DNA of 64,000 nucleotides. Source: an uncultured Alphaproteobacteria bacterium (GTDB lineage: Bacteria; Pseudomonadota; Alphaproteobacteria; HIMB59; GCA-002718135). This document shows positions 20,242 to 42,779 of this stretch, piece after piece. Location of the stretch: assembly GCA_902618385.1 (NCBI GenBank), contig CACNAF010000002.1, forward strand, positions 30,988 through 94,987, given 5' to 3'. How positions within the stretch are numbered: the first letter of the stretch is position 1; each line of letters starts with the position of its first letter. The notes below the pieces were generated by a model that was not told the DNA's origin, made no database searches, and saw nothing but the letters and a program-made list of their open reading frames with translations. The translations under genes and the position numbers were made by a program.

Positions 20242-21483
20242 GTGTCCGATAACTTAGAAATTAATAAAAGAGAATATCCAAGTAATTTTTCAAAAACTGC
20301 TATTGTGATTTGCCTTGATGGTAGTCAAAAAGAGTATCTCGAAGAAGCATCAAAATCAAATCTTACACCAAACCTTGATAAATTAATTGCAAGTGGTGAA
20401 AACCTACTAGTACACAGCGCTATTCCAAGTTTTACAAATCCAAATAATATTTCGATTGTAACAGGCCAACCAAGTTCTGTTCACGGTATATGCGGGAACT
20501 TCTTTTATACACCCGAGACCGGTGAAGAAGTAATGATGAATGACCCAAAATATATGCGAGCACCAACTATTTTTGAAAAATTTTATAATTCTGGTTCTAA
20601 AATTGCTCTGGTTACTGCAAAAGATAAGCTGAGAACACTTTTAGGAAATGGATTAAGTTTTGATGATGAGAGAGCTATTTGTTTTTCTGCTGAAAAATCT
20701 GATCAAGCAACAAAAGATCTCAATGGTATAGATAATGTAAACGATTGGTTAGGGATGCCAGTGCCAGAAGTATACTCTGAAGAACTTTCTGAATTTGTAA
20801 TGGCTGCAGGTGTAAAGCTTCTTGAAGAGTTCAAACCAAATATCATGTATTTATCGACTACGGATTATATTCAACACAAATATGCGCCAGGAAATGAAAC
20901 AGCAAATAAATTTTATGCAATGTTTGATAAATATATTGGTCTTTTAAATAAGGAGAATGTTTCTATAATTATCACAGCAGATCACGGTATGAAACCAAAA
21001 TCAAAAGAAGATGGTTCACCTAATGCAATATTTTTACAAGATTATTTAGATAAAAAATTTGAACCAAACATGGCTAAAGTTATTCTACCAATTACAGATC
21101 CATATGTTGTGCATCATGGTTCACTTGGTTCTTTTGCAACAATTTATTTAGAAGACAAAAGTAAGATAGATTCAGTTGTAAATGCTATAAAAGAAATAAA
21201 AGATATAGAAGTTGTTTTAACAAAAGACGAAGGATGCTCTACTTATAATTTACCTCCAGATAGAATGGGGGATATTATATGTATGTCTTCAGAATTTATG
21301 ACTATTGGTTCATCAGAAGATAAACACAATCTTTCTGGATTAAATGAACCTTTACGTTCACACGGTGGACTTCATGAAAGAGAAGTGCCATTCATATCAA
21401 ATTTAAAATTACAAAATTTAGATACTAACAAACAATTATATAACTATGATGCATTTTACTATGCAATTAACGGAGCCCTATGA
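20242..21483 (+). CDS. phnA: phosphonoacetate hydrolase
   Basis: Alkaline-phosphatase/NPP superfamily. Nucleophile motif [14 protein letters not shown], plus TADHGM and SHGGLHE. 413 aa with a GTG start. Overlaps the following ALDH by 4 nt, as in characterised phnA-phnY pairs. Confidence 0.82.
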
Positions 21484-22922
21484 TGCACAAAAAAATGATT
21501 AATGAAGCAATGCGTATTGCTGGAGAAAAAGTTACCTCAGATAAAACAATAAATGTTGAGTACCCTTTTACAGGTGAAGTAATCGGAACGGTTCCAGCCG
21601 GTACTGCAGAGCATGCAAGAAAGGCTTTAGATATTGCTGCAAATTACCAACCTAAACTTACAAGATACGAGAGACAAAAAATTCTTCAAACTGCTGCAGA
21701 AGTACTTGTTAAAAGAAAAGAAGAAATTTCTGATATTATTACTTTAGAACTTGGTATCTCAAAACAAGATTCTTTATACGAAGTAGGAAGAGCTTTTGAT
21801 GTCTTTTCATTAACGGCTCAACTTTGTATTCTTGATGATGGAGAAATATTTTCTTGTGATTTAACTCCGCATGGAAAAGCGAGAAAAATATTTACCATAA
21901 GAGAACCTTTAACGGCAATTTCAGCAATCACTCCATTTAATCATCCTTTGAATATGGTAGCGCATAAAATTGCACCTTCAATTGCAACTAATAATTGTAC
22001 TGTATGTAAACAAACAGAATTAACACCCTTAACAGCAATGGTACTTGCTGATGTTTTATATGAAGCAGGTTTACCACCAGAAATGTTTTCAGTTGTAACT
22101 GGATGGCCTCAAGACATTGGATCAGAAATGATCAAAAATCCAAACATTGATCTCATTACTTTTACAGGCAGTGTAGGTGTAGGAAAATTAATTGCTGAAC
22201 AAGCTGGATACAAAAGAACAGTTCTTGAGCTAGGCGGTAATGATCCTTTAATTGTTTTAAACGACTTAGATGGTGATGATCTTAAAAAAGCTGTTGAGCT
22301 AGCTGTTACTGGAGCAACGAAAAACTCTGGTCAACGTTGTACAGCTGTTAAAAGAATACTGGTTCAAGAATCCATTGCAGATCAATTTGTTGAAATGGCT
22401 CTTGAGCGTGCTAAGAAAATTAAATTTGGTGATCCTATGAATATGGAAACAGACTTAGGTACGGTTGTTAATGCTCAAGCTGCAGAACTTTTTGATAAAA
22501 GAGTTTCTATGGCTGAAGAAGACGGTGCAAAAATTTTATATCACCCTGGAAGAAAGGGTGCTTTGTTACCTCCAATAGTTGTAGATCATGTTGATCCTAA
22601 AAGTGAATTAGTTTTAGAAGAAACATTTGGTCCAGTTATCCCAATCATTCGTGTGCCTAATGACGATGAAGCTGTAATGAAAATATCTAATTCAACCGCA
22701 TTTGGATTATCATCTGGTGTATGTACAAATAACTTCATGCGAGCAAAAAAATATATTCAAGGTTTAAATGTTGGAACTGTAAATATTTGGGAGGTTCCAG
22801 GCTATAGAATTGAAATGTCTCCTTTTGGAGGAATTAAAGATTCAGGTCTTGGTTATAAAGAAGGAGTAATTGAAGCAATGAAAAGCTTTACTAATGTAAA
22901 AACTTTCTCGCTACCTTGGTAA
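21480..22922 (+). CDS. phnY: phosphonoacetaldehyde dehydrogenase (NAD-dependent aldehyde dehydrogenase)
   Basis: ALDH motifs ELGGNDP, catalytic Cys in GQRCTAV, and EETFGPV. The call rests on translational coupling to phnA and on phnW nearby. Confidence 0.78.
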
Positions 22923-23058: not shown

Positions 23059-24312
23059 ATGAAAAAATTAATTACAGGATTGGCAGCCGTATTAGCTTTC
23101 GGTTTTTATGGTTCTGTTAATTCAGCTAAGTCTATTGAAATAGAAGTAGCTTATCCTTATTCAGGATTATTCGATGTAACGTTTCAAGCTATTATGCCAG
23201 AGTTTGAAAAAGCGCATCCAGATATTCAAGTTAAATTTAGAGCAACTTATGAAAACTATGAAGATGCAACTGCAACAATTTTTAGAGAGTCTACTTCAGG
23301 TAACTTACCAGATGTAACGATGCAAGGTCTTAACAGACAAGCACCTCTAGTAGATAAAGGTATTGCAAAGTCTTTAGAGCCATTTATTGCAAAAGAAGCA
23401 GCTTTTGAAAAAGATGGTTACCATTCCGCTATGTTAAGTCTTTCAACATTCGGTGGTGAAGTTTATGGATTACCATTTTCTGTATCAACGCCAGTTGGAT
23501 ATTACAACATGGATCTATTAGCTGAAGCAGGTGTAGATAGTATTCCAACTAACTGGGACGAAGTTATTGCAGCATGTAATAAATTGGAAGCAGCAGGTAA
23601 AGGAACTCTATACTTTGGTTGGAACATCACAGGTAACTGGTTCCACCAAGCATTAATGCATACTCAGAACGTTCCAATGGTTAAAGATGGAGCTGTAAAT
23701 ATGGGTGGTGATGCAGGACTTGCAACGTTAGAGCAAATGAAAGCAATCATGAGTGGATGTAATATGCCAAACTATTCAATTGCTGATGGTCAAGCTGCGT
23801 TTAACGCAGGTACTATTGGTATGATGTTCTGGTCTACTTCAAGCTTGGGTTCAGTTAATGCTGCAAAGGCAGACTTTGTTTTAAAAACTGCACCATTCCC
23901 TGGAATGGCTGGAGTAAACAATGGAACACCAGCAAGATTACCAGCAGGTGGAAACGCTGCAATGTTAGTGTCTACATCTGATGATCCAGCAAGAGTTGAT
24001 GCTGCATGGACTTTCTTAAAGTTCATTACATCAGGTATCGGTGCTGCATTAGTTGCTGAAACAACTGGATATGTTCCACCAAATAAAGCAGCGAATGATT
24101 TATTAGGTGACTTCTATAGTCAAAACCCTAATAAACTTACTGCTGTTGAACAACTTCCACTTCTTGCTGATTGGTTTGCGTATCCTGGAGAAAATGGATT
24201 AGCTGTTACACAGGTAATCTATGATTTCACGGAAGAAATTGCTACAGGTGACGCTGATGATATGGCAGATCTTCAAGAAGAAATGATGGAAGAAATAAAC
24301 GATCTTATGTAA
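23059..24312 (+). CDS. family-1 extracellular solute-binding protein, UgpB-like (glycerophosphoryl or organophosphorus ligand inferred)
   Basis: Signal peptide. Colinear with E. coli UgpB as I recall it (HPDIQVKF..YENYED, FSVSTPVGYYNMDLLAEAG, TGYVPPNKAA). It has its own strong SD and terminator. Confidence 0.75.
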   Translation: MKKLITGLAAVLAFGFYGSVNSAKSIEIEVAYPYSGLFDVTFQAIMPEFEKAHPDIQVKFRATYENYEDATATIFRESTSGNLPDVTMQGLNRQAPLVDKGIAKSLEPFIAKEAAFEKDGYHSAMLSLSTFGGEVYGLPFSVSTPVGYYNMDLLAEAGVDSIPTNWDEVIAACNKLEAAGKGTLYFGWNITGNWFHQALMHTQNVPMVKDGAVNMGGDAGLATLEQMKAIMSGCNMPNYSIADGQAAFNAGTIGMMFWSTSSLGSVNAAKADFVLKTAPFPGMAGVNNGTPARLPAGGNAAMLVSTSDDPARVDAAWTFLKFITSGIGAALVAETTGYVPPNKAANDLLGDFYSQNPNKLTAVEQLPLLADWFAYPGENGLAVTQVIYDFTEEIATGDADDMADLQEEMMEEINDLM

Positions 24313-24342
24313 TTTGAGATTATTTATTATTAACTTTTTATT

Positions 24343-24375
24343 ACAGCGGCTTTATAAAAGCCGCTGTTTTATTTT
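24343..24375 (+). terminator. rho-independent terminator or attenuator after the SBP gene
   Basis: ACAGCGGCTTT-ata-AAAGCCGCTGT (11-bp stem) followed by TTTATTTT. Confidence 0.8.
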
Positions 24376-24399
24376 AAATTTAAATGGGAGTAAAAATAG

Positions 24400-25479
24400 A
24401 TGCCTCTTACAACAACTACAATAGGTGCTTATCCAAAACCTAAACAAACACCCATTCAAGATTGGTTTTTAGGGACAAAATCAGAAGAAGAGAGAAAAGC
24501 ATCAAAAGGATTATTATCAAATTGGTCACCTGGCGCATATGAAAAAGCATTAGAGTCTGCAGGTGCGGATGCTGAAAAATTATTTTTAGCAGCAATTAAA
24601 GAAGTTATAACTGATCAAGTGAGTGCGGGTATTGATGTTCCAACAGATGGGGAAGTTAGGCGTGAGAGTTATGTATTATATCAATGTCGATTTTTAAATG
24701 GTGTAAGTTTTAAGGAAGTTACACATAAGTCAGTAAGACAGGGTGCGTTCGAAGCTGACCTTCCAACTATTGTTGCACCAATTTCAAGTAAAGAAATACG
24801 TATGCATTTAGACTGGAAGAGTGCACAACAATTTACAAAAAACCCAGTTAAAATTACGCTACCTGGACCAATGACAATTACAGATTCAATTGCCAACAAT
24901 TACTATGATGACATGAAAAAACTTGGTTTTGATTTAGCATTAGCCCTCAATAAAGAAGTTAAAGCACTTGTAGATGCAGGTTGTCAGTATATTCAAATTG
25001 ATGAACCAGTATTTGCTAGAAAGCCCGATGAAGCTCATTCTTACGGTATGGAAAATTTAGAAAGAATGATGCATGGTATTCCTAAAGAAGTGCAACGCGT
25101 TTGCCATATCTGTTGTGGTTATCCTAACTCATTAGATTCAGAAGGGTATAAAAAGGCTGATCTAGATGCTTATGATAGAATTGCATCACTTGTAGATGAT
25201 TCAACTATTGATGAAGTATCTTTAGAAGATTCACATAGGCATAATGATTTAAATCTTTTAGAAAAATTTACTAAAACAAAAGTAATTTTTGGATTTATTG
25301 ATATTGCAAAAAGTAGAATGGAGTCTGTTGAAGAGGTAAGAGTTCGTATCAAAGATTCACTTGAACATATTGATGAACACCGCTTAATAGCTGCACCAGA
25401 TTGTGGTTTAGGTTTCTTTACACGAGAACAAGCAATTGAGAAAATGACAATTTTAACTAAAGCGGCAAAATCAATTTAA
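24400..25479 (+). CDS. core-MetE-like protein: cobalamin-independent methionine synthase catalytic domain only (Zn-dependent thiol alkyltransferase)
   Basis: 359 aa. TTTIGAYPKP, PTDGEVRRE and YIQIDEPVF match the MetE C-terminal domain. Zn ligands are present: H-x-C in VCHICCGY, E in VSLEDS, C in APDCGLGF. There is no N-terminal folate-tail domain. Confidence 0.8.
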   Translation: MPLTTTTIGAYPKPKQTPIQDWFLGTKSEEERKASKGLLSNWSPGAYEKALESAGADAEKLFLAAIKEVITDQVSAGIDVPTDGEVRRESYVLYQCRFLNGVSFKEVTHKSVRQGAFEADLPTIVAPISSKEIRMHLDWKSAQQFTKNPVKITLPGPMTITDSIANNYYDDMKKLGFDLALALNKEVKALVDAGCQYIQIDEPVFARKPDEAHSYGMENLERMMHGIPKEVQRVCHICCGYPNSLDSEGYKKADLDAYDRIASLVDDSTIDEVSLEDSHRHNDLNLLEKFTKTKVIFGFIDIAKSRMESVEEVRVRIKDSLEHIDEHRLIAAPDCGLGFFTREQAIEKMTILTKAAKSI

Positions 25480-25483
25480 TGTA

Positions 25484-26596
25484 ATGTGGAATTATTTTAA
25501 TCCTGTTGAAATTATCTTTGGAGAAAATAGATTTAAAGAAGTACATGATGCTCTTAAAAATAAGAACTACATCATAATCACTCATCCAGAAGAAATTTTT
25601 AAAAAATATAGCGATGAATTAAAATCTTCTTCAAATCCACCACTATCCATTATGACGGATGTTCAGCCTAATCCAGATTATAAGGATATTTTAGAGCTAC
25701 AAAAAAAATTTTCTTCAATCAATGAATCGGTAGATTATATTTTAGCTATAGGTGGTGGCTCTGTTACAGACACAGCTAAAGCAATTGCTGCATTTAAAGA
25801 TAAACAAGAATATCTGACAGATTTCGTTCGCAATAAGAAAAGTCCAAGAGTCGAAAATCCAATCAAGATTATTGCAATACCTACAACTTCAGGAACATCA
25901 AGTGAGCTTACGTGTTGGGCCACAATTTGGGATAAAGAAAAAAACAATAAATTATCTTTGGCGCATAAATCTCTTTATGCAGAAAAAACAATTATCGATC
26001 CATCTATTATGGTTGATAAGCCTTTAGGCTTGACCATTTCAACTGGTTTAGATGCTCTCTCCCATTCAATGGAAAGTATTTGGAATATTAATGCAAATCC
26101 AGTTTCTGCTTCTCATGCAATACAAGCATCAAAATTAGTATTAGAAAATTTACCACTTCTCACTAAAGATTTAAGAAGTGTTGAATTACGCTCAAACATT
26201 GCATTGGCGTGTGTTCATGCTGGTTTAGCGTTTTCCAATACGAAAACTGCTATTGCGCACAATCTATCATACCCTGTGACACTCAATTACGGTATTCAGC
26301 ATGGTATTGCTTGTTCATTTACTTTACCCATGATTACTAAAAGTATGGTTGGAATTGATAGTGTCGCTGAAGAAAGACTAAAGTTAATTTTTAACGATAA
26401 CCTTGAAAATGCCGCAAATCATCTGAGTGAATTTATGCGTTCTTTAGAGGTTCCTCTTAACTTAAATGAAATAAAAGTTCCTGTTCAAGAATGGAATAAT
26501 ATAGTAGATGATGCGTTTTTAGGGGAACGAGGTAAAAACTTTATTGGCAATAAAGAAGCCTTTATCTCTTCTGCTAAATCAATGGGACTTTATTAG
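25484..26596 (+). CDS. iron-containing (group III) alcohol dehydrogenase; candidate phosphonoacetaldehyde / 2-hydroxyethylphosphonate oxidoreductase
   Basis: GGGSVTDTAKAIA, PTTSGTSSELT, and metal His motifs LSHSMES and IAHNLSYPV...HGIAC. 370 aa. The substrate is inferred only from context. Confidence 0.75.
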   Translation: MWNYFNPVEIIFGENRFKEVHDALKNKNYIIITHPEEIFKKYSDELKSSSNPPLSIMTDVQPNPDYKDILELQKKFSSINESVDYILAIGGGSVTDTAKAIAAFKDKQEYLTDFVRNKKSPRVENPIKIIAIPTTSGTSSELTCWATIWDKEKNNKLSLAHKSLYAEKTIIDPSIMVDKPLGLTISTGLDALSHSMESIWNINANPVSASHAIQASKLVLENLPLLTKDLRSVELRSNIALACVHAGLAFSNTKTAIAHNLSYPVTLNYGIQHGIACSFTLPMITKSMVGIDSVAEERLKLIFNDNLENAANHLSEFMRSLEVPLNLNEIKVPVQEWNNIVDDAFLGERGKNFIGNKEAFISSAKSMGLY

Positions 26597-26598
26597 TA

Positions 26599-27705
26599 AT
26601 GAAAAAAAATTTCAGGTTTTATGATAACAGACAAAAATACTTGCTATTTGTCACAACAACAAATGAAAAAAATCAAATTGCTGATGCTATACGCCCTCAC
26701 GTAAATAAAATTAAACCTCAAAAACCTGGCATAAAAATATTTGATGCTGGTATGGGTGATGGTTCCTTACTTATGAATGTTATGCGTCAGTGCCACGAGG
26801 CTGAGCCTAACGTACCTTTATTAGTTTGCACAAAAGAAATAAGCATAGAAGATGTAAGATTAGGTTTAGAAAAGTTACCCGATAGGTTTGTTGAGCATAA
26901 GAATACCGTTTTTGTCATTTCAAATCTACACTACGCGGAAGCCGCAAACCTAAAATCAAAAAATGAAGTTAAACAGAAAAAAATTAATTGGAATATTATT
27001 AAATTAAAAGGAGATACCTCTCTTGAATTTGCCCAACAATTAAGAGAACAAAATGAATTTCTAGAAAAAAAATGGAATATAGAAATTAATAAAAAATCAG
27101 GTAACCATACTTATAAAGAGCCTTCAGTCATGGTTATCTACCGCGAAGATCAAGAATTTAATGTTAATGAATTAATACCTACCAAAAAAAAATCAGATAA
27201 TAAATTTGATCTTATTATTGCTTCACAGCCTTATCGTTCAAGAATTTCAGCAGAAAAGAAATCAAAATACGTCATCGAACCAATGATTCGAGCGTTAAAA
27301 TCAAAAGGGAAATTATTAACTATTCATGCTTCAGGAAAAGATCCTGCTAATGAAATAATTCGTAAAATTTGGCCAAAAGAGAACCCATTTCCTTCTCTTG
27401 GAAATAGTATCATTTCTTATCTTAAGAAAAATTTAGATAAAGATCTATTAAGTAGTTTATCGTTTGGAGAAAAAAGAATTATTAAATGTAAATTGAGAGC
27501 TCTACCAACAGAAATCAGTGGAGGTATAGCGACATCATTAGTTTTTTCTGCTTGGAATGCGTCCATATATGTCAATCAAATGGATGATGATCAAGTAATG
27601 AAGGTAGAAAAAACAAGAAATTATGAAAAAGTAGTCCAGAAAATAGTTTCAAAAAATAAAGGCCTTTATTTTAACAATGAAATATTTGTAATCGAAAAAA
27701 AATAA
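26599..27705 (+). CDS. class I SAM-dependent methyltransferase-like protein with a large internal insertion, function unknown
   Basis: Motif I IKIFDAGMGDGSLL, acidic post-I residue in CTKEIS. After about 120 aa come motif II FDLIIASQPY and motif III LKSKGKLLTI. 368 aa. Confidence 0.55.
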   Translation: MKKNFRFYDNRQKYLLFVTTTNEKNQIADAIRPHVNKIKPQKPGIKIFDAGMGDGSLLMNVMRQCHEAEPNVPLLVCTKEISIEDVRLGLEKLPDRFVEHKNTVFVISNLHYAEAANLKSKNEVKQKKINWNIIKLKGDTSLEFAQQLREQNEFLEKKWNIEINKKSGNHTYKEPSVMVIYREDQEFNVNELIPTKKKSDNKFDLIIASQPYRSRISAEKKSKYVIEPMIRALKSKGKLLTIHASGKDPANEIIRKIWPKENPFPSLGNSIISYLKKNLDKDLLSSLSFGEKRIIKCKLRALPTEISGGIATSLVFSAWNASIYVNQMDDDQVMKVEKTRNYEKVVQKIVSKNKGLYFNNEIFVIEKK

Positions 27706-27709
27706 TTTT

Positions 27710-28498
27710 TTATTTAAACCAATTAACTTCTGTTTTTAAAAAATCCTCTGTATGAATAATTAATGCGTCAGATCGAATTATTGCAACATTATAATTTGTA
27801 TCTGTATTTGCCGTTCCTAAACGATATTCATTTGAAAAGTTAGGTATTAGAGGAGACCAAGTACTTCTTGGGGAGGAAAAAGTAATACCACAATAAGAGC
27901 CAGAACTTGTAATGTGTTGATGACCAAAAAAAATATGTTTTATTATCTTATTATTTTTCGTTAAAATTTGTTGAAACTCTTTTTTTTGTTGTAATCCTAT
28001 TCCATCACTTTCCTCTTTTACTAATGCCAGTGGATTATGATGCATAAAGATGTACGTATCCGTATTAGTCTTACTTAAAATATTATTTAACCATTCTTGC
28101 CTCTCTTCACAATAATGTCCTTGGTGAGTGTTAATCAGATTAGTATCTATAAAAATTAAACGTTTATTATCTATATCCTTAAAGTATTGAATAAATCCAT
28201 TTGGATCGGTTTCAATATTAGGAAAGTTTATTTTAAATTCATCTCTGTTATCATGATTACCTATAATTAGTTGAGGATTTAAATTCTTCGGCAGACCTGC
28301 TTCATCAATTATTTTTAAAAATAACTGATAAGAATCTTTATCACCTAAGTCTGTAATATCACCTGTGATGGCAAATAAATCTGCATCACCATGATTATTT
28401 TTTATATGAGTTAATGCTTTTTTAAATTTACTGACAGGATCTATGCCATGAATCTTATCTATATAAATATGAGGGTCTGAAAGGTGAATAATTTTCAT
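27710..28498 (-). CDS. metallophosphoesterase, GpdQ/CpdA-like phosphodiesterase
   Basis: All calcineurin-like motifs are present: HLSDPH, TGDITDLG, GNHDNR, FMHHNP, GHQH. Colinear with Enterobacter GpdQ as I recall it. 262 aa. Confidence 0.8.
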   Translation of the reverse strand: MKIIHLSDPHIYIDKIHGIDPVSKFKKALTHIKNNHGDADLFAITGDITDLGDKDSYQLFLKIIDEAGLPKNLNPQLIIGNHDNRDEFKINFPNIETDPNGFIQYFKDIDNKRLIFIDTNLINTHQGHYCEERQEWLNNILSKTNTDTYIFMHHNPLALVKEESDGIGLQQKKEFQQILTKNNKIIKHIFFGHQHITSSGSYCGITFSSPRSTWSPLIPNFSNEYRLGTANTDTNYNVAIIRSDALIIHTEDFLKTEVNWFK

Positions 28499-28518
28499 TA
28501 TTAAATATAAATTTATAA

Positions 28519-29151
28519 TTAAATCGCAGTTTTAAAATAAATATACTTATTAAATTCTTCTTTTAAGTCGATGCTAACTCTTGCATGTACTTTACCTTGT
28601 TTTCCTTGAAACGATTGTTTTTCTGTAACTGGAAACACCCCTTCATGCCAAATATTTGGATGAATATACAAACCTTTTGATCCGTCACAATAAAATGCTT
28701 TAAAATGTTCTGGTTCAATGTCGTCTGTAGGTAAGGCTAAAGGACAAATAAATGGTTTATTTTCTGTAGGAAAAAAAAGCTGACCTCCATCAGGATGATA
28801 ATTTGCATGCCATAAAAAAATTTTTGTTGGATCTGAATATTTATCTTTTTGTAATTCTTGATCAGGATTATTGGCATAACCCAGTATATATTTTCCATCT
28901 ACTTCATAATCGCTCTTATGTTGGACAGCATTATTTTGTCCATAAAGCACGTCACCTTGCCACCAGGTATCAAAAGAACCTTCGGTAGTTCCACCTTCAT
29001 TACCAGTTCCCTCTTCTATGTCACGCCATCCTTGTTTTGGCCAAGTAACAATTTCAATATCACTATTTTCAAAACTATCGATTAAATACCCGTATCCTTT
29101 AAGATTTTCATTTGTTGCTTTAACTAAAGGTATTTCAATTTCTTTTGTCAT
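28519..29151 (-). CDS. ureidoglycolate-lyase (AllA)-like beta-barrel protein, function unknown
   Basis: Colinear with E. coli AllA as I recall it: LKGYGYLID vs FSAYGDVIE, ANYHPDGGQLFFP vs ERHPLGTQAFIP, GLYIHPNIWHEGVF vs GVNYHRNVWHHPLF. It carries about 50 extra residues. Confidence 0.6.
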   Translation of the reverse strand: MTKEIEIPLVKATNENLKGYGYLIDSFENSDIEIVTWPKQGWRDIEEGTGNEGGTTEGSFDTWWQGDVLYGQNNAVQHKSDYEVDGKYILGYANNPDQELQKDKYSDPTKIFLWHANYHPDGGQLFFPTENKPFICPLALPTDDIEPEHFKAFYCDGSKGLYIHPNIWHEGVFPVTEKQSFQGKQGKVHARVSIDLKEEFNKYIYFKTAI

Positions 29152-29158
29152 TTTTTTG

Positions 29159-30256
29159 TTAGTTTAATGTTAATCCCAACTCAGTAACAACTTCTTTTAC
29201 AGCTTTTATTGTATCCATCATGTCTTGTTCATTTAAATTACCAATACACCCAATTCTAAAAGTTTCTGCCACTGTTAGTTTTCCTGGATAAATTAAAAAA
29301 TCTTTTTCACTAAGAGCATTATAAAATTTATCAAAGTTAAATTTAGGATCATTAGGATGTTTAAAAGTAATAATAATTGGTGCTTGTAAATTATCAGGAA
29401 GTAGTTGCTCAAATCCCAACTCTTTCATTCCATTACAAATAATTTCACAATTTTTTTTATATCTTTTACCTCTTCCCTCTACACCGCCTTGTTCTTTATG
29501 TTCCTCAATCGCTTGGTTGAATGCAGCCAATACGTGTGTTGGAGGTGTAAATCGCCATTGTTTATTTTTTTCCATTGCTTGCCATTGATCATACAAGTCT
29601 AGACTTAGTGAGTGACTATTGCCTTTTGCATTTTGAATAACTTCATTTTTAACAAGAATGAAACCAACACCTGGCACACCTTCTAAGCATTTGTTTGATG
29701 AAGCGGCTACAGCATCAAAAGTAATTGTTTTAGAACTTAAGGGTAATGCACCAAAGGCACTCATTGCATCGATGAATAACGATAAGTTTTTCCCTTCAAC
29801 CAATTTTGCAATCTCTTCAATAGGATTTAAAATACCCGATGTTGTTTCACAATATACAGCAAAGACGTGTGTTAAGTTGTTGCTATCAATTAACTCTTCA
29901 ATTTTATTGATGTCATGTACTTCATGTTCAGCAACTTCATATTCAATAAAATCTCTCCCTAAATAAGTGCACATTTTTTTCATTCTTTGTCCGTAAGCAC
30001 CATTGATCAGAATCAGAATTTTAGAATCTTTTTGAGTAAGAGAGCTCACCATTGACTCTACAGCAAAAGTTCCACTTCCCTGCATTGGAACACATTGATA
30101 TTTATCTTCACCGTCTATTAATTTAACAAGGGAATCTCTAATTGATGCATTGAGATCAATAAATTTTGTATCTCTCGAACCCCAATCATGAAGCATAGCC
30201 TCTTTTGTTGACATCGATGTCGTGAGAGGACCAGGGGTTAATAATTTTTTATCCAT
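29159..30256 (-). CDS. phnW: 2-aminoethylphosphonate--pyruvate transaminase
   Basis: Class V aminotransferase. LLTPGPLTTS N-terminus and HDWGSRDTKF, as in characterised PhnW. 365 aa. Confidence 0.85.
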   Translation of the reverse strand: MDKKLLTPGPLTTSMSTKEAMLHDWGSRDTKFIDLNASIRDSLVKLIDGEDKYQCVPMQGSGTFAVESMVSSLTQKDSKILILINGAYGQRMKKMCTYLGRDFIEYEVAEHEVHDINKIEELIDSNNLTHVFAVYCETTSGILNPIEEIAKLVEGKNLSLFIDAMSAFGALPLSSKTITFDAVAASSNKCLEGVPGVGFILVKNEVIQNAKGNSHSLSLDLYDQWQAMEKNKQWRFTPPTHVLAAFNQAIEEHKEQGGVEGRGKRYKKNCEIICNGMKELGFEQLLPDNLQAPIIITFKHPNDPKFNFDKFYNALSEKDFLIYPGKLTVAETFRIGCIGNLNEQDMMDTIKAVKEVVTELGLTLN

Positions 30257-30344
30257 TAAATATTTACTTAATAAATATTATTATAAATTTGATCAATCTT
30301 ATTAAAGTTGGAATTGAATTTATTTTCTAATAAGTTAATTATAA

Positions 30345-30920
30345 ATGAGAATGGAAGAAAATATCGTAGATTATCTCTTAGATCTTTTGAAAACAAAAGG
30401 TGCTGATATTCAATATGGTAATGAGGATGTGACTCAGCTTGAGCACGCACTCCAATGTGCTGAACTTGCTGAAAAACATAAATTACCAGGACCAACAATT
30501 GCTGCAGCATTACTGCATGATGTTGGCCACCTTATTTATGAGGACGGCGATCCCATTCATGAAGGGAAAGATGGTCATCATGAAAACTTAGGTGCTGATT
30601 TTTTAAAAAAATATTTTGGTGAAGATGTTATTTTACCAATTAGAGCACATGTTGATTCAAAAAGATATTTATCAAGTGTTGAAGAAGGTTATTATGATAG
30701 TCTATCAGAAGCATCGAAACTTTCGTTAAAAGTTCAAGGCGGTCCTTTCACAAAAGAAGAAGCAGATGCGTTTATCAGCAAACCTTTTATGGATGAGGCA
30801 GTAGAGCTTAGAAGATTTGATGATCTAGCAAAAATTCTAGATAAAAAAACTCCCGATGTTGAACATTTTCGCCCCTATTTAGAAGAAGCAAGACAGTCTT
30901 TTTTAGCTAAACAAGCGTAA
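30345..30920 (+). CDS. phnZ: HD-domain diiron oxygenase PhnZ family (C-P cleaving; 1-hydroxy-2-aminoethylphosphonate dioxygenase-like)
   Basis: QLEHALQCA, AALLHDVGH, HHENLGADFL, AHVDSKRYL and LSEASKLSLKVQGGPF are colinear with characterised PhnZ as I recall it. 191 aa. Confidence 0.8.
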   Translation: MRMEENIVDYLLDLLKTKGADIQYGNEDVTQLEHALQCAELAEKHKLPGPTIAAALLHDVGHLIYEDGDPIHEGKDGHHENLGADFLKKYFGEDVILPIRAHVDSKRYLSSVEEGYYDSLSEASKLSLKVQGGPFTKEEADAFISKPFMDEAVELRRFDDLAKILDKKTPDVEHFRPYLEEARQSFLAKQA

Positions 30921-31445
30921 ATGCAATTTAGCAATTATGATTTTATTGACTCTAAGTCATTTGCAGGAAAAATTATATTAACTTCTTTTCCAGGTCTTAA
31001 CTCTAATGGTTTATTTGAAGAAACAATTTTAGCAAACGAATTAGAAATGTTTAAAAATAATAATTGTAGTTCTATTACTTCTTTTGTTGAAGATAGCGAA
31101 TTTGAAAAATTGTGTGATAAAACTTTGTTTGTCAAAAGTATTTATAAACATAAATTACATTGGTACCATTTACCCATTTATGACATGGGAGCACCAGATA
31201 AAGATTTTAAATATAAATGGGAAACAACAAAAGTTTTATTAAAGAACGAATTGATAGATGGTAAAAATATAGTCTTACATTGTCGTGGAGGAAAAGGAAG
31301 AGCTGGCACTATAGCTGCTATTTTACTTGTTGAATTTAATTATGAAAAACAAGAAGCTATTGATCTTGTACGATCAAGAAGAAAAGGAGCTATTGAATCT
31401 AAAATACAGAAAGATTTTATTTTTTCTTATCGAGCAGTTAATTAA
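30921..31445 (+). CDS. cysteine-dependent (dual-specificity/CDKN3-like) phosphatase
   Basis: P-loop HCRGGKGRAGT (HCX5R-S/T). 174 aa. The ATG directly abuts the phnZ stop. Confidence 0.75.
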   Translation: MQFSNYDFIDSKSFAGKIILTSFPGLNSNGLFEETILANELEMFKNNNCSSITSFVEDSEFEKLCDKTLFVKSIYKHKLHWYHLPIYDMGAPDKDFKYKWETTKVLLKNELIDGKNIVLHCRGGKGRAGTIAAILLVEFNYEKQEAIDLVRSRRKGAIESKIQKDFIFSYRAVN

Positions 31446-32494
31446 AAAGAGACCGTTAAATTAAAAATATTTTCTAGAATAAATAAAACAATTAAAGAAA
31501 TTAAAGCTGCAATTATAGGTAGCGTCATCCAACCCAAAGAAATTCTACCCGCAATTGACCATTGAACCTCTTTTCCTCCTTTTAAAAGACCAATTCCAAT
31601 TACGCCGCCAACAACAGCTTGGGAACTTGATACTGGTACCAAAGGTATAGAGGGAAGATTTATAGATTGTAAAAAAGCACTTATGCCCTGGGATGCAAAT
31701 AAAAATAAAACAATAGAATGCGATATAACAACAATAAATGCTGCCACTGGTGTCATTTTTAAGAGATCATTACCCACGGTAAACATAACTCTTTTCGAGT
31801 AGGTAAAAACACCAACAGCTATGGCTAAACCACCCAGCAGAAATAGTTGTTCTTTTGAGGAAAAGACAAATAAATTTCCAATAGTAACATCAGTAAACGG
31901 TGATATAGGTACGAAGACACCCATTACATTGGCAATATTGTTTGCACCTAAACTATAAGCACCAAAAGCACCGGCTAAAAGTAAAGCTGTTCTTGTATAG
32001 GCATCAAGTCTGAGAATATGTAACTTTCTATTGAGTATAACTCTTTTTGTAAAAGTAAATAAACCCATTGCAATAACTCCTGCAATAATAGGACAGAGTA
32101 TCCATGTTCCTAAAATAGTAATTAAAACTTGAAGATTAGTTGAAGATCCCGTGTATAAATTCCAACCAACAATTGCTCCAACAATCGCTTGCGTTGTAGA
32201 AACAGGCAAGCCAACTTTGGTCATTAAATAAACGGATATGCCTGCAGCCACACATGCTGCAAAGGCACCAGGTAATGCATTAATAGCACCTAACTTACCT
32301 AAAGTTTCTGTTGTTCCTGCTCCACTAATAATTGCACCTAGAATAACAAAGACACTACAAATTATTGCTGCACTTGTGAAACTAACCATTCGCGTCCCAA
32401 CAGCAGTTCCAAAAACATTTGCTGCATCATTGGCGCCAAGTGACCAACCTAAAAAAAGACCACCAAATAAAAAAATCAGAATTGTAATTTCCAT
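31442..32494 (-). CDS. inorganic phosphate transporter, PiT (PHO4) family
   Basis: Duplicated GANDAANVFG and GANNIANVMG signature. About 10 TM segments. 350 aa. Confidence 0.88.
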   Translation of the reverse strand: MEITILIFLFGGLFLGWSLGANDAANVFGTAVGTRMVSFTSAAIICSVFVILGAIISGAGTTETLGKLGAINALPGAFAACVAAGISVYLMTKVGLPVSTTQAIVGAIVGWNLYTGSSTNLQVLITILGTWILCPIIAGVIAMGLFTFTKRVILNRKLHILRLDAYTRTALLLAGAFGAYSLGANNIANVMGVFVPISPFTDVTIGNLFVFSSKEQLFLLGGLAIAVGVFTYSKRVMFTVGNDLLKMTPVAAFIVVISHSIVLFLFASQGISAFLQSINLPSIPLVPVSSSQAVVGGVIGIGLLKGGKEVQWSIAGRISLGWMTLPIIAALISLIVLFILENIFNLTVSF

Positions 32495-32500: not shown

Positions 32501-33163
32501 TTAAACGGAGCGTTTAATAGCGTAAATTTGAACCTCGTCAGCTATGTCTTCTGCTTGATCACAAATACGATCAATCTTCTCTACAAAATATCGAAGATGC
32601 ATTTTTTGATCTAGAGGTAATTCAGAATCAAAAATTCTTCTTGCAAGTGCACTAAATTTTATATCAGATTCTTTTTCATAAAAAGTTACTTTATGAGCAT
32701 TATCTCTAACAGATTTAATATCTCTAAAAAATGATCTTACAGTTAAACATAATGATTCAACACAATTTACAACAGTCTCTGTTAACTCAATAAGATCTTC
32801 ATGAAATTCTTTTGGAAAATTAGGTTTTTGAATAGAGAAGTGATAGCAATTTCCTTGGTACATTCCAATTAATTCGTCGATGTGTTCTAGAAGTCGTAAC
32901 ACATCACTTCTTGCATCTGGGATTAGTGTTTCTTCATAAAGAGTATGCTCAACATCTTTCGTAATTTTGTCGGCCTTACTTTCCATTTCTTTAACTTTTT
33001 CAACCATTTCCTCAAATTTACCATTGGCGGAATGATTGAGATAAGTTGGAACTATCGATTTAAATACTAAGCCCACTTCAGAGACAATATCAACAAACTC
33101 ATCAATTTCTCTTTCAAGCTTTTTGGTATCACCAAATAATGATGCACTTTTTAATCCAAACAT
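32501..33163 (-). CDS. DUF47 / PhoU_div family protein (PiT-associated regulator)
   Basis: 220 aa, helical. Conserved position immediately upstream of pit. Confidence 0.8.
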   Translation of the reverse strand: MFGLKSASLFGDTKKLEREIDEFVDIVSEVGLVFKSIVPTYLNHSANGKFEEMVEKVKEMESKADKITKDVEHTLYEETLIPDARSDVLRLLEHIDELIGMYQGNCYHFSIQKPNFPKEFHEDLIELTETVVNCVESLCLTVRSFFRDIKSVRDNAHKVTFYEKESDIKFSALARRIFDSELPLDQKMHLRYFVEKIDRICDQAEDIADEVQIYAIKRSV

Positions 33164-33286: not shown

Positions 33287-33514
33287 ATGACAGATTTATC
33301 AATTAATAGAATTAAGTGGTTTAGCACCGCGTTAATTTTATCAGGAATATTATTAACCAATTTAAATGCGTATCCAATTAACATAATTATTCACGGTACA
33401 GGTGCTGTTGGTTGGTCAATTGTTGGTTATATGACAAAAGATAGAGCTCTGCTCACAAACTTTGGTTTACAACTCCCACTATTTATTTTTGGATATATTT
33501 ATTTGCTGACATGA
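33287..33514 (+). CDS. small 3-TM membrane protein, unknown function
   Basis: 75 aa with three hydrophobic helices. AGGAG lies 6 nt upstream. Its stop overlaps the arsC start (ATGA). Confidence 0.55.
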   Translation: MTDLSINRIKWFSTALILSGILLTNLNAYPINIIIHGTGAVGWSIVGYMTKDRALLTNFGLQLPLFIFGYIYLLT

Positions 33515-33930
33515 AAAATAAAAATATTCTTTTTATGTGTGTTGCTAATTCAGCAAGAAGTCAAATGGCTGAAGGAATTGCAAAAAAATTATATCCTAAT
33601 TGTATTATTCAAAGTGCAGGATCAGTGCCCAAAGAAGTTAATCCCAATGCTATCGAGGTTATGGGTGAAATCGATATTGATATATCAAAACATTATTCAA
33701 AAGATTTTGAAAGTTTAGACAAAAAATTTAGAGATGAATTAAATACCGTTTTTACGCTTTGTAAAGAAGAGGTATGTCCAGTTTTAAATTCCAAAGCTCA
33801 GATATTTTCAATACCATTTGATGATCCAGCATCAGATCATTTTAGTTCAAACCAATTAAATAAATTTAGAGAAGTAAGAGACTCAATTTTTATTAAATTG
33901 AAAGAACTAAAAAATTTATTTGAAAACTAA
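33511..33930 (+). CDS. arsC: arsenate reductase, LMW-PTP (thioredoxin-coupled) type
   Basis: CVANSARS (CX5R) P-loop, TLCKEEVCP Cys pair, and FDDPA. Confidence 0.82.
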   Translation: MKNKNILFMCVANSARSQMAEGIAKKLYPNCIIQSAGSVPKEVNPNAIEVMGEIDIDISKHYSKDFESLDKKFRDELNTVFTLCKEEVCPVLNSKAQIFSIPFDDPASDHFSSNQLNKFREVRDSIFIKLKELKNLFEN

Positions 33931-34070
33931 TAAGTTTAAATATTAGTTTAATTTATAAAAATTTAATATTCTATTAATACGTCTGTAAAAAATAAAATTT
34001 AAATACTTTTTACCACTCACAGTATTATTTCTTCCTGCTTATGTCCAATTATTGTGAGTGGGATTAAATT

Positions 34071-36176: not shown

Positions 36177-36236
36177 AATTTTTTTTTATATTTTTTAGGT
36201 ATAAAAAAAACATGTTCATAAAAAATTCATATTTCT

Positions 36237-36695: not shown

Positions 36696-36727
36696 TCGAG
36701 TTTAATACTTTAGATGTATACATTTCC

Positions 36728-38286: not shown

Positions 38287-38306
38287 TATAAAATTACCTT
38301 AAATAA

Positions 38307-40110: not shown

Positions 40111-40177
40111 TAATTAAAGATTTGTTCTTATACATAAAAGTATCATTTTATAATACAATTTATTATTATATGTGTGT

Positions 40178-40195
40178 ATTGTATAAAAATAACAG
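40178..40195 (-). promoter_or_regulatory. candidate Pho box plus perfect -10 for plcP
   Basis: The minus strand reads CTGTTAT-TTTT-ATACAAT, then 7 nt, then TATAAT (40165-40170). The site is 68 nt upstream of the plcP ATG. Confidence 0.4.
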
Positions 40196-40196
40196 T

Positions 40197-41718: not shown

Positions 41719-41749
41719 TATATATTCTGTAAGGACAACCTTATTTTAA

Positions 41750-42757: not shown

Positions 42758-42779
42758 AAATCTTAAATTTTTATAAAAT

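What the first reader, a model, noticed from the sequence alone, without database searches (positions are those of the whole stretch)
28519..29151. AllA (ureidoglycolate lyase)-like protein embedded in the phnW operon
The gene sits 7 nt after phnW and 20 nt before the GpdQ-like diesterase, on the same strand. It is therefore almost certainly co-transcribed with both.
Its sequence follows AllA block by block (GYGYLID, YHPDGGQLFFP, YIHPNIWHEGVF). It carries an insertion of about 50 aa rich in G/T/E/W (EEGTGNEGGTTEGSFDTWWQGD).
No ureide or purine-ring catabolic genes are nearby.
AllA chemistry is C-N cleavage of an alpha-hydroxy-amino acid derivative. That has no place in known AEP catabolism.
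The island lacks the PhnY*-type hydroxylase that normally feeds PhnZ. This beta-barrel protein is therefore a candidate for an unknown step on a modified AEP, such as release or isomerisation of an N-substituted or hydroxylated AEP.
Basis: partly seen in the sequence, partly recalled or inferred. Interest (0 to 1): 0.7.

Follow-up and report, generated by a model that had tools for sequence, protein, structure and literature searches.

The report
DsyD/AllA-like cupin in phosphonate operons
This SAR11 gene, labelled "ureidoglycolate lyase" in databases, belongs to a distinct, unstudied enzyme subfamily that recurs as an optional extra gene in phosphonate-degradation operons of several bacterial lineages, so it is probably an unrecognised helper enzyme of marine phosphonate breakdown.

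Summary
A 210-aa ORF lies at 28519-29151 (-), 7 nt after phnW and 20 nt before a metallophosphoesterase gene, and carries the quoted motifs.

It has the AllA fold but is not an AllA orthologue. AllA equivalog models score 22-34 bits against cut-offs of 160-315. AllA aligns over only about 78 columns. AllA's E-x-H-x-L motif is replaced by N-Y-H-P-D.

The "insertion" is a conserved family hallmark. It is shared with DsyD, the dimethylsulfoniohydroxybutyrate decarboxylase domain of DsyGD, which aligns over the full length (177 columns, E 7e-22). DsyD is the closest characterised relative.

The association with phosphonate genes is real and spans lineages:
- phnW lies directly upstream in 30 of 30 SAR11-type loci.
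- The gene is the third gene of tmpA-tmpB operons in Rhodobacterales and Hyphomicrobiales, including Leisingera caerulea.
- It sits between phnW or a phnX-like gene and a TIGR03364 FAD oxidoreductase.
- It overlaps a dimethylglycine-dehydrogenase-like gene beside pbfA-phnW.

It is optional: 11 of 62 tmpB loci carry it. It co-occurs with TmpA, so it does not replace PhnY*.

It is most likely an ancillary metal-dependent cupin acting on hydroxylated or N-methylated aminoethylphosphonates. The exact reaction is unknown, and I found no paper describing it.

The parts
28519..29151 (-). The gene in question ('X'): a 210-aa cupin of the PF04115 superfamily, in a DsyD-like long subfamily. Conserved residues are W37, P38, R43, G48-T49-G50, N117-Y-H119-P-D121-G-G-Q124, W168-H169, Q185..H189 and E199.
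29159..30256 (-). phnW, the 2-aminoethylphosphonate:pyruvate transaminase. It lies directly upstream and is the conserved operon partner in SAR11.
   Evidence: NF010006 scores 510 bits against a cut-off of 296. phnW is adjacent in 30 of 30 SAR11-type loci.
27710..28498 (-). A metallophosphoesterase (calcineurin-like; SpdA/GpdQ-like) and the third gene of the apparent operon. It is a facultative neighbour.
   Evidence: PF00149 scores 63 bits and NF050112 scores 174 bits, below its cut-off of 400. It lies directly downstream in 25 of 36 SAR11-type loci.
30257..30344 (.). An 88-bp divergent intergenic region between phnW-X and the HD gene, and the presumed shared control region.
   Evidence: Coordinates. 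The promoter scan was uninformative in this AT-rich DNA, so this is an inference.
30345..30920 (+). A PhnZ-type HD-domain oxygenase, transcribed divergently. No hydroxylase partner is present in the window.
   Evidence: TIGR03276 scores 201 bits against a cut-off of 214.6; the TmpB model scores 157 bits and the PhnZ1 model 153 bits. No TauD-like ORF was found in the window.
30921..31445 (+). A dual-specificity/PTP-like phosphatase. Its first base directly follows the last base of the HD gene.
   Evidence: PF22784 scores 46.5 bits. The pairing is conserved in SAR11 loci.
20242..22922 (+). phnA (20242-21483) and phnY (21480-22922). Together with phnW they complete the hydrolytic PhnW-PhnY-PhnA route for AEP.
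   Evidence: TIGR02335 scores 470 bits against a cut-off of 408. TIGR03250 scores 797 bits against a cut-off of 636.
23059..27705 (+). A variable cassette of four genes: a UgpB-like binding protein (23059-24312), a MetE-like Meth_synt_2 protein (24400-25479), a PhpC-type Fe-ADH that is probably a hydroxyethylphosphonate dehydrogenase (25484-26596), and a 368-aa protein with no Pfam family above threshold (26599-27705).
   Evidence: PMC13576164 for PhpC-type HEP dehydrogenases. The cassette content varies between SAR11 loci.

Best explanation
X is a cytoplasmic cupin enzyme that is probably metal-dependent. It belongs to a distinct 'long' subfamily (about 210-225 aa) of the PF04115 superfamily. 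The closest characterised relative of this subfamily is the DsyD decarboxylase domain, not AllA.

X is co-transcribed with phnW. It acts as an optional ancillary enzyme of aminoalkylphosphonate catabolism, in the sense of the 'phosphonate breakdown factors'. It is not a ureidoglycolate lyase.

Inferred mechanism:
- Both characterised relatives act on an alpha-hydroxy acid and break a bond at the hydroxyl-bearing carbon to leave a carbonyl there. AllA acts on ureidoglycolate. DsyD acts on 4-dimethylsulfonio-2-hydroxybutyrate, which carries an onium group.
- By analogy, X would bind a 1-hydroxy-2-ammonioethylphosphonate through a metal held by H119, D121 and H169 (perhaps also H189 or E199). Candidate substrates are (R)- or (S)-1-hydroxy-2-AEP and its N-methylated or trimethylated forms.
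- X would then break a bond at C1 or the neighbouring C-N bond. This would widen the range of hydroxylated or N-methylated AEP derivatives that feed the PhnW-PhnY-PhnA, PhnX or HD-oxygenase routes.

Shown: fold, subfamily, operon position, and recurrent, optional association with phosphonate genes. Inferred: metal dependence, substrate class and bond cleaved.
For: Fold and family:
- The AlphaFold2 model has a mean pLDDT of 89.7. The best PDB matches are AllA structures (E 2e-9 to 5e-8, target-normalised TM-score 0.63-0.72), followed by DUF4867.
- DsyD aligns to the family profile over 177 columns, including the family-specific segment (probability 99.4%, E 6.7e-22). BLASTP of the window protein against DsyD gives E 5e-15.
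- AllA aligns over only 78 columns (E 4e-10).
- The family and DsyD share N-x-H-x-[D/E], where AllA has E-R-H-P-L.

Context:
- phnW lies directly upstream in 30 of 30 SAR11-type loci.
- A tmpB-type HD gene lies directly upstream of X in 12 of the 47 non-SAR11 species-representative loci, with tmpA before it in 11. TmpA scores 590-604 bits against a cut-off of 400, and TmpB 342-352 bits against 300. This includes Leisingera caerulea, where gaps between the three genes are 3 and 11 nt.
- L059 has phnW-X-TIGR03364 FAD oxidoreductase. L052 has PhnX-like-X-TIGR03364.
- In L062 and L069 a dimethylglycine-dehydrogenase-like gene overlaps X, next to phnW and pbfA (PbfA scores 670 bits against a cut-off of 525).
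- In all, about 18 of the 47 non-SAR11 loci are linked to phosphonate genes. The neighbours in the remaining loci show no recurrent partner.

Optional nature: X lies directly after tmpB in 11 of 62 metagenomic tmpB loci, whereas TmpA lies directly upstream in 62 of 63.

Chemistry of relatives: AllA is a Ni-dependent urea-releasing lyase (PMC3793230). DsyGD converts DMSHB to DMSP in buffer without added cofactors (PMC11306096). DUF4867 is a metal-binding cupin and a non-essential accessory protein (PMC11968277).
Against: - No biochemical data exist for any member of this subfamily.
- Identity to DsyD is only 26-27%. Single-domain PF04115 homologues that are 28-34% identical to DsyD lacked its activity, and the isolated DsyD domain was itself inactive (PMC11306096).
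- About 60% of the non-SAR11 loci have no phosphonate gene within about 6 kb.
- Four Sneathiellales or related loci place X beside an allantoate-amidohydrolase-like M20 enzyme.
- In tmpAB operons every chemical step is already assigned, so no gap calls for X.
- D121 is Cys in a few family members.
Confidence: 0.45

Rival explanations
1. X is a genuine, though divergent, ureidoglycolate lyase (EC 4.3.2.3) that releases urea and glyoxylate, as databases annotate it.
For: - Pfam PF04115 is above its gathering score.
- The fold is that of AllA.
- NCBI names family members 'ureidoglycolate lyase'.
- In four loci (L057, L064, L065, L068) a neighbour matches an allantoate-amidohydrolase subfamily model, with 691 bits for the L057 protein.
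Against: - All eight AllA NCBIfam models (seven equivalogs, one subfamily) score 22-34 bits against cut-offs of 160-315.
- Only about 78 columns align with AllA.
- AllA's E-x-H-x-L is replaced by N-x-H-x-D.
- No allantoinase, allantoicase or ureidoglycine aminohydrolase lies near X in the window or in the 28 non-phosphonate loci.
- The recurrent partners are phosphonate genes.
Confidence: 0.07
2. X is a stand-alone DMSHB decarboxylase, that is, the DDC activity of DMSP synthesis that remains unidentified in many bacteria.
For: - X is homologous to DsyD over its full length.
- PMC11306096 states that the DDC enzymes of several bacteria are unidentified.
- The family is common in marine Alphaproteobacteria.
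Against: - No DsyB-, DsyG- or MmtN-type methyltransferase lies next to X. The neighbouring 368-aa ORF is unrelated to DsyG.
- The gene sits in a phosphorus-acquisition island and in tmpAB and phnW operons.
- Single-domain homologues of similar divergence lacked DDC activity (PMC11306096).
- To my knowledge SAR11 is not a DMSP producer.
Confidence: 0.07
3. X is a mononuclear iron oxygenase. It would either replace PhnY* by hydroxylating AEP for the orphan HD oxygenase in SAR11, or oxidatively demethylate N-methyl-AEPs.
For: - An H-x-D...H pattern (H119, D121, H169 or H189) resembles a 2-His-1-carboxylate triad.
- The SAR11 HD gene has no hydroxylase partner in the window.
- X neighbours enzymes that process N-methyl groups.
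- The reaction attributed to DsyD is oxidative (PMC11306096).
Against: - X co-occurs with TmpA in the same operon, so it is not a substitute for the hydroxylase.
- X occurs in clusters with no HD gene at all (L035, L052, L059, L062).
- No 2-oxoglutarate-binding motif was identified.
- The fold matches to JmjC-type proteins are weak (rank 11, TM-score about 0.2-0.3).
Confidence: 0.15
4. X uses AllA-type chemistry on a carbinolamine or imine. It would speed the breakdown of the HO-C-N intermediates produced by the neighbouring FAD amine oxidoreductases or PLP enzymes, releasing phosphonoacetaldehyde plus an amine.
For: - X lies directly beside a TIGR03364 oxidoreductase, or overlaps a dimethylglycine-dehydrogenase-like oxidoreductase (L052, L059, L062, L069).
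- X lies beside phnW in SAR11.
- The proposed mechanisms of AllA, KdgF and DUF4867 all make and break the same type of bonds, turning C(OH)-X into C=O (PMC11968277).
Against: - The TmpA/TmpB pathway, which is the commonest context outside SAR11, has no such intermediate.
- Such intermediates usually decay spontaneously.
Confidence: 0.15
5. X has no role in phosphonate metabolism. The adjacency would reflect gene hitch-hiking in variable islands.
For: - About 60% of non-SAR11 loci lack phosphonate neighbours.
- X is optional in tmpAB operons.
- The SAR11 island is hypervariable.
Against: - X is adjacent to phosphonate genes in four different cluster architectures across at least five orders.
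- Spacing is often tight, with 4-nt overlaps or gaps of 3-11 nt.
- The pairing with phnW holds across SAR11 lineages down to 62% identity (L035).
Confidence: 0.08

Closest known systems
DsyD, the C-terminal PF04115 domain of the bifunctional DMSP-synthesis enzyme DsyGD (Gynuella sunshinyii and Oscillatoriales; PMC11306096)
   Same: - The architecture matches over the full length, including the WP...GxG...W...NxV segment that AllA lacks.
- Both share the N-x-H-x-[D/E]...G-Q, VWH, Q and E motifs.
- DsyD's substrate is an alpha-hydroxy acid carrying an onium group. That makes it chemically analogous to 1-hydroxy-2-(trimethylammonio)ethylphosphonate, the TmpA product.
   Different: - Identity is only 26-27%.
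- X is a single-domain protein and is not fused to a methyltransferase.
- H189 of the family is Asp in DsyD.
- X sits among phosphonate catabolic genes, not DMSP-synthesis genes.
- The activity of X is untested.
AllA / DAL3 ureidoglycolate lyase (EC 4.3.2.3; PDB 1XSQ, 1YQC, 2BDR)
   Same: - Both have the cupin-type beta-barrel fold (Foldseek E about 1e-8 to 1e-9).
- Both share the N-terminal YG strand.
- Both share the H-P...Q...F-P and VWH blocks in the C-terminal half.
   Different: - X is about 50 aa longer, with a conserved extra segment.
- Equivalog scores are far below the cut-offs.
- E-R-H-P-L becomes N-Y-H-P-D.
- X has additional conserved Q185, H189 and E199.
- X has no ureide-pathway context.
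DUF4867 (SftX/SqvB) of sulfoglycolysis clusters (PDB 9GYY; PMC11968277)
   Same: - It is the next-best structural match.
- It is a metal-binding cupin.
- It is a recurrent but non-essential extra gene in pathways whose steps are all assigned, which is the same situation as X in tmpAB operons.
   Different: - No sequence similarity was detected by HMM search.
- It has a 2His-2Glu metal site.
- It occurs in a sulfosugar context.
Phosphonate breakdown factors PbfA-D, F and G (Peracchi laboratory; PMC8154272, PMC10590968, PMC12366243, PMC13576164)
   Same: - The operational definition fits: a gene of initially unknown function that recurs in AEP-degradation clusters of several taxa and is optional.
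- X neighbours pbfA and a TIGR03364 FAD oxidoreductase, possibly PbfD-like, in some loci.
   Different: - The fold is unrelated to the PLP, FAD and NAD enzymes among the Pbf proteins.
- X also occurs in the oxidative tmpAB operon.
- X is not mentioned in any paper I could search.

Membership tests
AllA-type ureidoglycolate lyase (NCBIfam models NF0029xx and NF009932) | Whole-protein score above the curated model cut-off | tested here: not met
   The best score is 34.1 bits against a cut-off of 230. All eight models score 22-34 bits against cut-offs of 160-315, and all match only aa ~108-181.
AllA-type ureidoglycolate lyase | End-to-end homology with solved AllA proteins of 160-175 aa | tested here: not met
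   Only profile positions 104-181 align. hhalign gives 78 columns and E 4e-10.
AllA-type ureidoglycolate lyase | L-E-R-H-P-L-G-[ST]-Q motif, as seen in the E. coli-type and P. putida structures | tested here: not met
   X has A-N-Y-H-P-D-G-G-Q. The His and Gln are kept, Glu becomes Asn and Leu becomes Asp.
AllA-type ureidoglycolate lyase | Genomic association with allantoin or ureide catabolic genes | tested here: not met
   None lies within +/-10 kb in the window. None recurs in the 28 non-phosphonate loci. Four loci have an M20 'allantoate amidohydrolase' subfamily neighbour.
AllA-type ureidoglycolate lyase | Ni-dependent release of urea and glyoxylate from (S)-ureidoglycolate | not testable with these tools
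   This needs an enzyme assay (the reference assay is in PMC3793230).
Pfam PF04115 (Ureidogly_lyase) / AllA-fold cupins | Score above the Pfam gathering score, and an AllA-like fold | tested here: met
   PF04115 scores 41.6 bits against 23. The top Foldseek hits are 2bdr, 1xsq, 1xsr and 1yqc, each with probability 1.00.
DsyD-like 'long' PF04115 subfamily | Full-length alignment that includes the WP...GxG...W segment, plus the N-x-H-x-[D/E] motif | tested here: met
   hhalign gives 177 columns, probability 99.4% and E 6.7e-22. Motifs were compared.
DsyGD (DMSP synthesis enzyme) | Fusion to, or adjacency with, a DsyG-type S-methyltransferase | tested here: not met
   X is a single domain of 210 aa. 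The nearby 368-aa ORF shows no similarity to DsyG (E 0.41).
DsyGD (DMSP synthesis enzyme) | DMSHB decarboxylase activity | not testable with these tools
   This needs an assay. Homologues 28-34% identical to DsyD were inactive (PMC11306096).
Ancillary 'phosphonate breakdown factor' type gene (operational class) | Recurs inside AEP or TMAEP degradation clusters of several unrelated taxa | tested here: met
   Pelagibacterales: 30 of 30 loci beside phnW. Rhodobacterales and Hyphomicrobiales: tmpA-tmpB-X. Also Betaproteobacteria (L059), Cyanobacteria (L052), Rhodospirillaceae (L062, L069) and Arenicellales (L039).
Ancillary 'phosphonate breakdown factor' type gene (operational class) | Converts a phosphonate into an intermediate of a known pathway | not testable with these tools
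   No biochemical data exist.
PhnY*/TmpA-type Fe(II)/2-oxoglutarate hydroxylase | TauD- or PhyH-type domain | tested here: not met
   X matches only PF04115. X follows a true TmpA in the same operon.

The most novel reading that the evidence does not exclude
X represents a previously unrecognised enzyme activity of marine phosphonate catabolism. It would be a DsyD-like mononuclear-metal cupin that cleaves a 1-hydroxy-2-(methyl)ammonioethylphosphonate, or TMAEP or an N-methyl-AEP itself, by a route independent of both the PLP lyase PbfA and the HD-domain oxygenases. The route would be either oxidative or eliminative C-P or C-N cleavage. This would give SAR11 and roseobacters access to a pool of hydroxylated or N-methylated phosphonates that current pathway maps do not cover.
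Probability: 0.22. Interest if true: 0.8.

Novelty: new variant of a known kind. Interest (0 to 1): 0.6.

Why it matters
- **Ecological weight.** Phosphonates are a major part of marine dissolved organic phosphorus, and SAR11 is among the most abundant bacterial groups in the ocean. The exact protein sequence is on record in 262 blocks of public assemblies.
- **Gap in pathway maps.** A conserved, tightly operon-linked gene of unknown function sits beside phnW, and as an overlooked third gene in some tmpA-tmpB operons. That includes the operon of Leisingera caerulea, where TmpA and TmpB were characterised and which a review describes as a two-gene operon (PMC10574752). This suggests current pathway maps are incomplete. 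The missing part may be the fate of hydroxylated or N-methylated AEP derivatives.
- **Annotation error.** The family is systematically named 'ureidoglycolate lyase'. That label would mislead metagenomic inferences about ureide and nitrogen metabolism.
- **Link to DsyD.** The relationship ties this family to the only other functionally studied non-AllA member of PF04115. It suggests a common theme of alpha-hydroxy acids carrying an onium group.
- **Testability.** The proteins are small, and the candidate substrates have already been synthesised by groups working on PbfA, PbfF and TmpAB.

Tried and rejected
- **Genome scan with the 25-sequence alignment A1.** It failed because no stretch was conserved enough. 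It worked with the 8-sequence alignment A2.
- **First neighbour analysis.** Choosing the longest ORFs was spoiled by antisense ORFs in GC-rich genomes. I redid it with a filter on codon-position GC content.
- **Promoter and terminator scan of 27400-31600.** Promoter-like sites were no more frequent than in shuffled sequence, and no terminators were found. Co-transcription therefore rests on the gap sizes and on conservation.
- **A DsyG-like partner.** I tested whether the nearby 368-aa methyltransferase-like ORF resembles DsyG. It does not.
- **PbfF-like neighbour.** The 2-hydroxyacid dehydrogenase downstream of X in L054 and L075 matched only generic glyoxylate/hydroxypyruvate reductase models below their cut-offs, so I did not count it as a phosphonate context.
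- **Fusion partners among long family members.** The only one found was a glyoxalase/VOC domain, in P0238. A single case is not interpretable.
- **Small neighbouring ORFs.** They gave SnoaL-like, thioesterase, DUF1801 and Cupin_7 matches, with no recurrent theme.
- **Literature.** No searchable paper links PF04115 or ureidoglycolate-lyase-like proteins with AEP or phosphonate catabolism. The search for 'PbfE' returned only materials-science papers. The original TmpAB paper (PMC6503667) is not held, so I could not check whether it mentions the third gene.
- **Window annotation.** A look-up for the ORF at 47722-49269 found no record, so Pfam annotation of the window beyond about 39 kb was not obtained.
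- **Geometry of the putative metal ligands.** This could not be checked because model coordinates are not exposed.
Full report
**1. Observation**

- The ORF at 28519-29151 on the minus strand encodes 210 aa.
- It starts 7 nt after the phnW stop. phnW (29159-30256) scores 510 bits on NF010006 against a cut-off of 296.
- It ends 20 nt before a calcineurin-type metallophosphoesterase gene at 27710-28498.
- All quoted motifs are at the stated places: GYGYLID at aa 19-25, the G/T/E/W-rich stretch at aa 46-67, YHPDGGQLFFP at aa 118-128 and YIHPNIWHEGVF at aa 162-173.
- The gene is real. About 4150 homologues were found, and the identical protein is on record in 262 blocks of public assemblies.
- The window comes from a SAR11-type (Pelagibacterales) genome. 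Single-cell genomes labelled AG-8xx/9xx carry the locus at 99-100% identity.

**2. The island**

The gene lies in a phosphorus-acquisition island.

| Coordinates | Strand | Gene |
|---|---|---|
| 18932-20065 | - | ugpC-like ABC ATPase |
| 20242-21483 | + | phnA |
| 21480-22922 | + | phnY |
| 23059-24312 | + | UgpB-like binding protein |
| 24400-25479 | + | MetE-like protein |
| 25484-26596 | + | PhpC-type Fe-ADH |
| 26599-27705 | + | 368-aa protein, no Pfam family above threshold |
| 27710-28498 | - | metallophosphoesterase |
| 28519-29151 | - | X |
| 29159-30256 | - | phnW |
| 30345-30920 | + | PhnZ-type HD oxygenase |
| 30921-31445 | + | dual-specificity phosphatase |
| 31442-32494 | - | PHO4-family permease (Pfam PF01384) |
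| 32501-33163 | - | PhoU_div |
| 33511-33930 | + | arsenate-reductase-like LMW phosphatase (LMWPc) |
| 34071-36176 | - | ppk1 |

- The Fe-ADH scores 362 bits on TIGR03405, below its cut-off of 424. Such enzymes are hydroxyethylphosphonate dehydrogenases according to PMC13576164.
- The HD oxygenase scores 201 bits on TIGR03276 against a cut-off of 214.6.
- The hydrolytic AEP route PhnW-PhnY-PhnA is therefore complete.
- No TauD- or PhyH-type hydroxylase and no ureide gene lie within +/-10 kb. No TmpA-like ORF is present anywhere in the window.

**3. What the protein is**

- Pfam PF04115 matches only aa 119-182 (41.6 bits). Every AllA NCBIfam model scores 22-34 bits against cut-offs of 160-315.
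- An AlphaFold2 model (pLDDT 89.7) is most similar to AllA structures: E 2e-9 to 5e-8, target-normalised TM-score 0.63-0.72, 13-15% identity. DUF4867 comes next. The fold assignment is sound.
- Sequence homology to AllA covers only about 78 columns.
Across the 25 diverse sequences of A1, the invariant residues include R43, H119, W168, H169 and E199; most of the rest are kept in at least 90%.
- A search of cluster representatives at 50% identity found 716 related clusters.
- NCBI names members 'ureidoglycolate lyase'.

**4. Closest characterised relative**

- A literature search for PF04115 led to DsyGD (PMC11306096). Its C-terminal DsyD domain converts 4-dimethylsulfonio-2-hydroxybutyrate to DMSP.
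- I took the published DsyGD sequence from the paper's supplementary file. DsyD aligns with the family profile over 177 columns, including the family-specific segment (probability 99.4%, E 6.7e-22). BLASTP with the window protein gives E 5e-15.
- The family and DsyD share N-x-H-x-[D/E], where AllA has E-R-H-P-L.
- X therefore belongs to a 'long', DsyD-like branch of PF04115, at 26-27% identity.
- AllA is a Ni-dependent lyase (PMC3793230). DUF4867 binds metal through 2 His and 2 Glu, and its role is unknown (PMC11968277).
- Metal dependence of X is inferred from the conserved His, Asp and Glu pattern. It has not been shown.

**5. Genomic association**

SAR11-type loci (36):
- phnW lies directly upstream in all 30 loci with enough flanking sequence. 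This includes a 62%-identical lineage in which the operon is phnA-phnY-phnW-X and no HD gene is nearby (L035).
- The HD gene is present in 27 of 36 loci.
- The esterase lies directly downstream in 25 of 36 loci.

Non-SAR11 species-representative loci (47):
- Twelve have a tmpB-type HD gene directly upstream, often with a 4-nt overlap. Eleven of these also have tmpA. TmpA scores 590-604 bits against a cut-off of 400, and TmpB 342-352 bits against 300.
- Leisingera caerulea has tmpA, tmpB and X in one direction, with gaps of 3 and 11 nt. A review describes this as a two-gene operon (PMC10574752).
- L059 has phnW-X-TIGR03364 FAD oxidoreductase. L052 has a PhnX-like hydrolase, X and a TIGR03364 enzyme.
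- In L062 and L069 a dimethylglycine-dehydrogenase-like gene overlaps X, beside phnW-pbfA. L039 has phnW, phnY, a DUF72 gene and then X.
- About 18 of 47 loci are thus phosphonate-linked, in four architectures and at least five orders.
- The other loci have heterogeneous neighbours and no ureide set. The exception is an M20 'allantoate amidohydrolase'-subfamily gene in four Sneathiellales-type loci.
- A neighbour-joining tree shows the contexts interleaved within one compact family.

**6. X is optional**

Among 62 metagenomic tmpB loci with enough downstream sequence, X follows tmpB in 11 (18%). TmpA precedes tmpB in 62 of 63. X is therefore an accessory gene, not a core partner of the HD oxygenase and not a substitute for the hydroxylase.

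**7. Mechanism (inference)**

- Both characterised relatives act on an alpha-hydroxy acid and break a bond at the hydroxyl-bearing carbon. AllA expels urea from ureidoglycolate. The DsyD reaction is an oxidative decarboxylation that removes the carboxyl group of an onium-bearing 2-hydroxy acid.
- The TmpA product and natural 1-hydroxy-2-AEP are alpha-hydroxy phosphonic acids with an ammonium group on the next carbon.
- The immediate neighbours of X are enzymes specialised for N-methylated or hydroxylated AEPs: TmpA, the TIGR03364 oxidoreductase (possibly PbfD-like), the dimethylglycine-dehydrogenase-like enzyme, and PbfA.
- I therefore favour a metal-dependent cupin that binds a 1-hydroxy- and/or N-methyl-aminoethylphosphonate and cleaves at or next to C1, which would widen the substrate range of the resident pathway.
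- Which bond is cleaved (C-P, C-N or C-H) and whether O2 is used cannot be decided here.

Rivals and rough weights:

| Rival | Weight |
|---|---|
| Oxygenase that substitutes for PhnY* or demethylates N-methyl-AEPs | 0.15 |
| AllA-type cleavage of carbinolamine or imine intermediates from the neighbouring oxidoreductases | 0.15 |
| True ureidoglycolate lyase | 0.07 |
| Stand-alone DMSHB decarboxylase | 0.07 |
| No role in phosphonate metabolism | 0.08 |

**8. Novelty**

I found no paper in the searchable library that connects this family with phosphonate metabolism. The named ancillary enzymes to date are PbfA-D, PbfF and PbfG (PMC12366243, PMC13576164). The original TmpAB paper was not available. 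I rate this as a new variant of a known kind: a mis-annotated, uncharacterised subfamily of a known fold, in a new pathway context.

**9. Verdict**

X is not AllA, and it is genuinely linked to phosphonate genes. It does not replace PhnY*. Its nearest characterised relative is DsyD.
- Interest is 0.6.

Noticed in passing
L084 5262-7666 (Leisingera caerulea); also L038, L043, L046, L053, L063, L071-L073, L080: A review describes the biochemically characterised tmpA-tmpB pair as a two-gene operon. In L. caerulea and many other Rhodobacterales and Hyphomicrobiales it has a tightly linked third gene, X, with gaps of 3 and 11 nt or 4-nt overlaps. Only about 18% of metagenomic tmpB loci carry it.
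   Followed up: yes
window 30345-31445 (+): The PhnZ-type HD oxygenase scores just below the TIGR03276 cut-off and has no hydroxylase partner in the window. Its last base is directly followed by the first base of a dual-specificity/PTP-like phosphatase gene. This HD-phosphatase pairing is conserved across the SAR11 loci. The substrate of the orphan HD enzyme is unexplained.
   Followed up: partly
window 23059-27705 (+): A cassette lies between phnY and the esterase. It holds a UgpB-like binding protein, a MetE-like Meth_synt_2 protein, a PhpC-type Fe-ADH and a 368-aa protein with no Pfam family above threshold. The cassette is present, partial or absent in different SAR11 genomes; for example L024, L027 and L030-L032 lack most of it. 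The MetE-like protein might be a methyl-transfer enzyme for N-methylated substrates. I did not test this.
   Followed up: partly
L019-L022, L025, L033 (SAR11 loci), between X and the metallophosphoesterase: Some SAR11 genomes have 3-6 kb of extra genes, including another binding protein, inserted between X and the esterase. Others lack the esterase altogether (L029, L031, L032). The X-esterase linkage is therefore facultative.
   Followed up: partly
P0238 (418 aa, representative-library hit): One family member is fused to a C-terminal glyoxalase/bleomycin-resistance/dioxygenase (VOC) domain. That superfamily includes the fosfomycin-resistance enzymes, which act on phosphonates. It is a single case of unknown origin.
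   Followed up: no
L062 2432-8702 and L069 7524-13783 (Rhodospirillaceae): A dimethylglycine-dehydrogenase-like protein of about 800-865 aa (DAO plus GCV_T domains) overlaps X. It lies beside a SnoaL-like gene, phnW and pbfA. This suggests an undescribed folate-linked N-demethylation step for methylated AEPs.
   Followed up: partly
L085 (Aliamphritea spongicola), 1907-7660 and 12692-14353: Here X has its own LysR-type regulator. It lies near a gamma-butyrobetaine-hydroxylase-like dioxygenase, an MFS transporter and a BCCT betaine/choline transporter, with no HD gene. This hints at a wider link to trimethylammonium compounds.
   Followed up: no
window 33511-47000 and L086/L087: The surrounding region holds an arsenate-reductase-like LMW phosphatase, ppk1, ppx and a histidine-phosphatase gene. 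By homology with L087 it probably also holds a histidine-kinase gene and a phosphate-type ABC transporter (PBP_like_2 binding protein and permease). This fits a phosphate-starvation island whose content differs between otherwise near-identical SAR11 genomes.
   Followed up: partly
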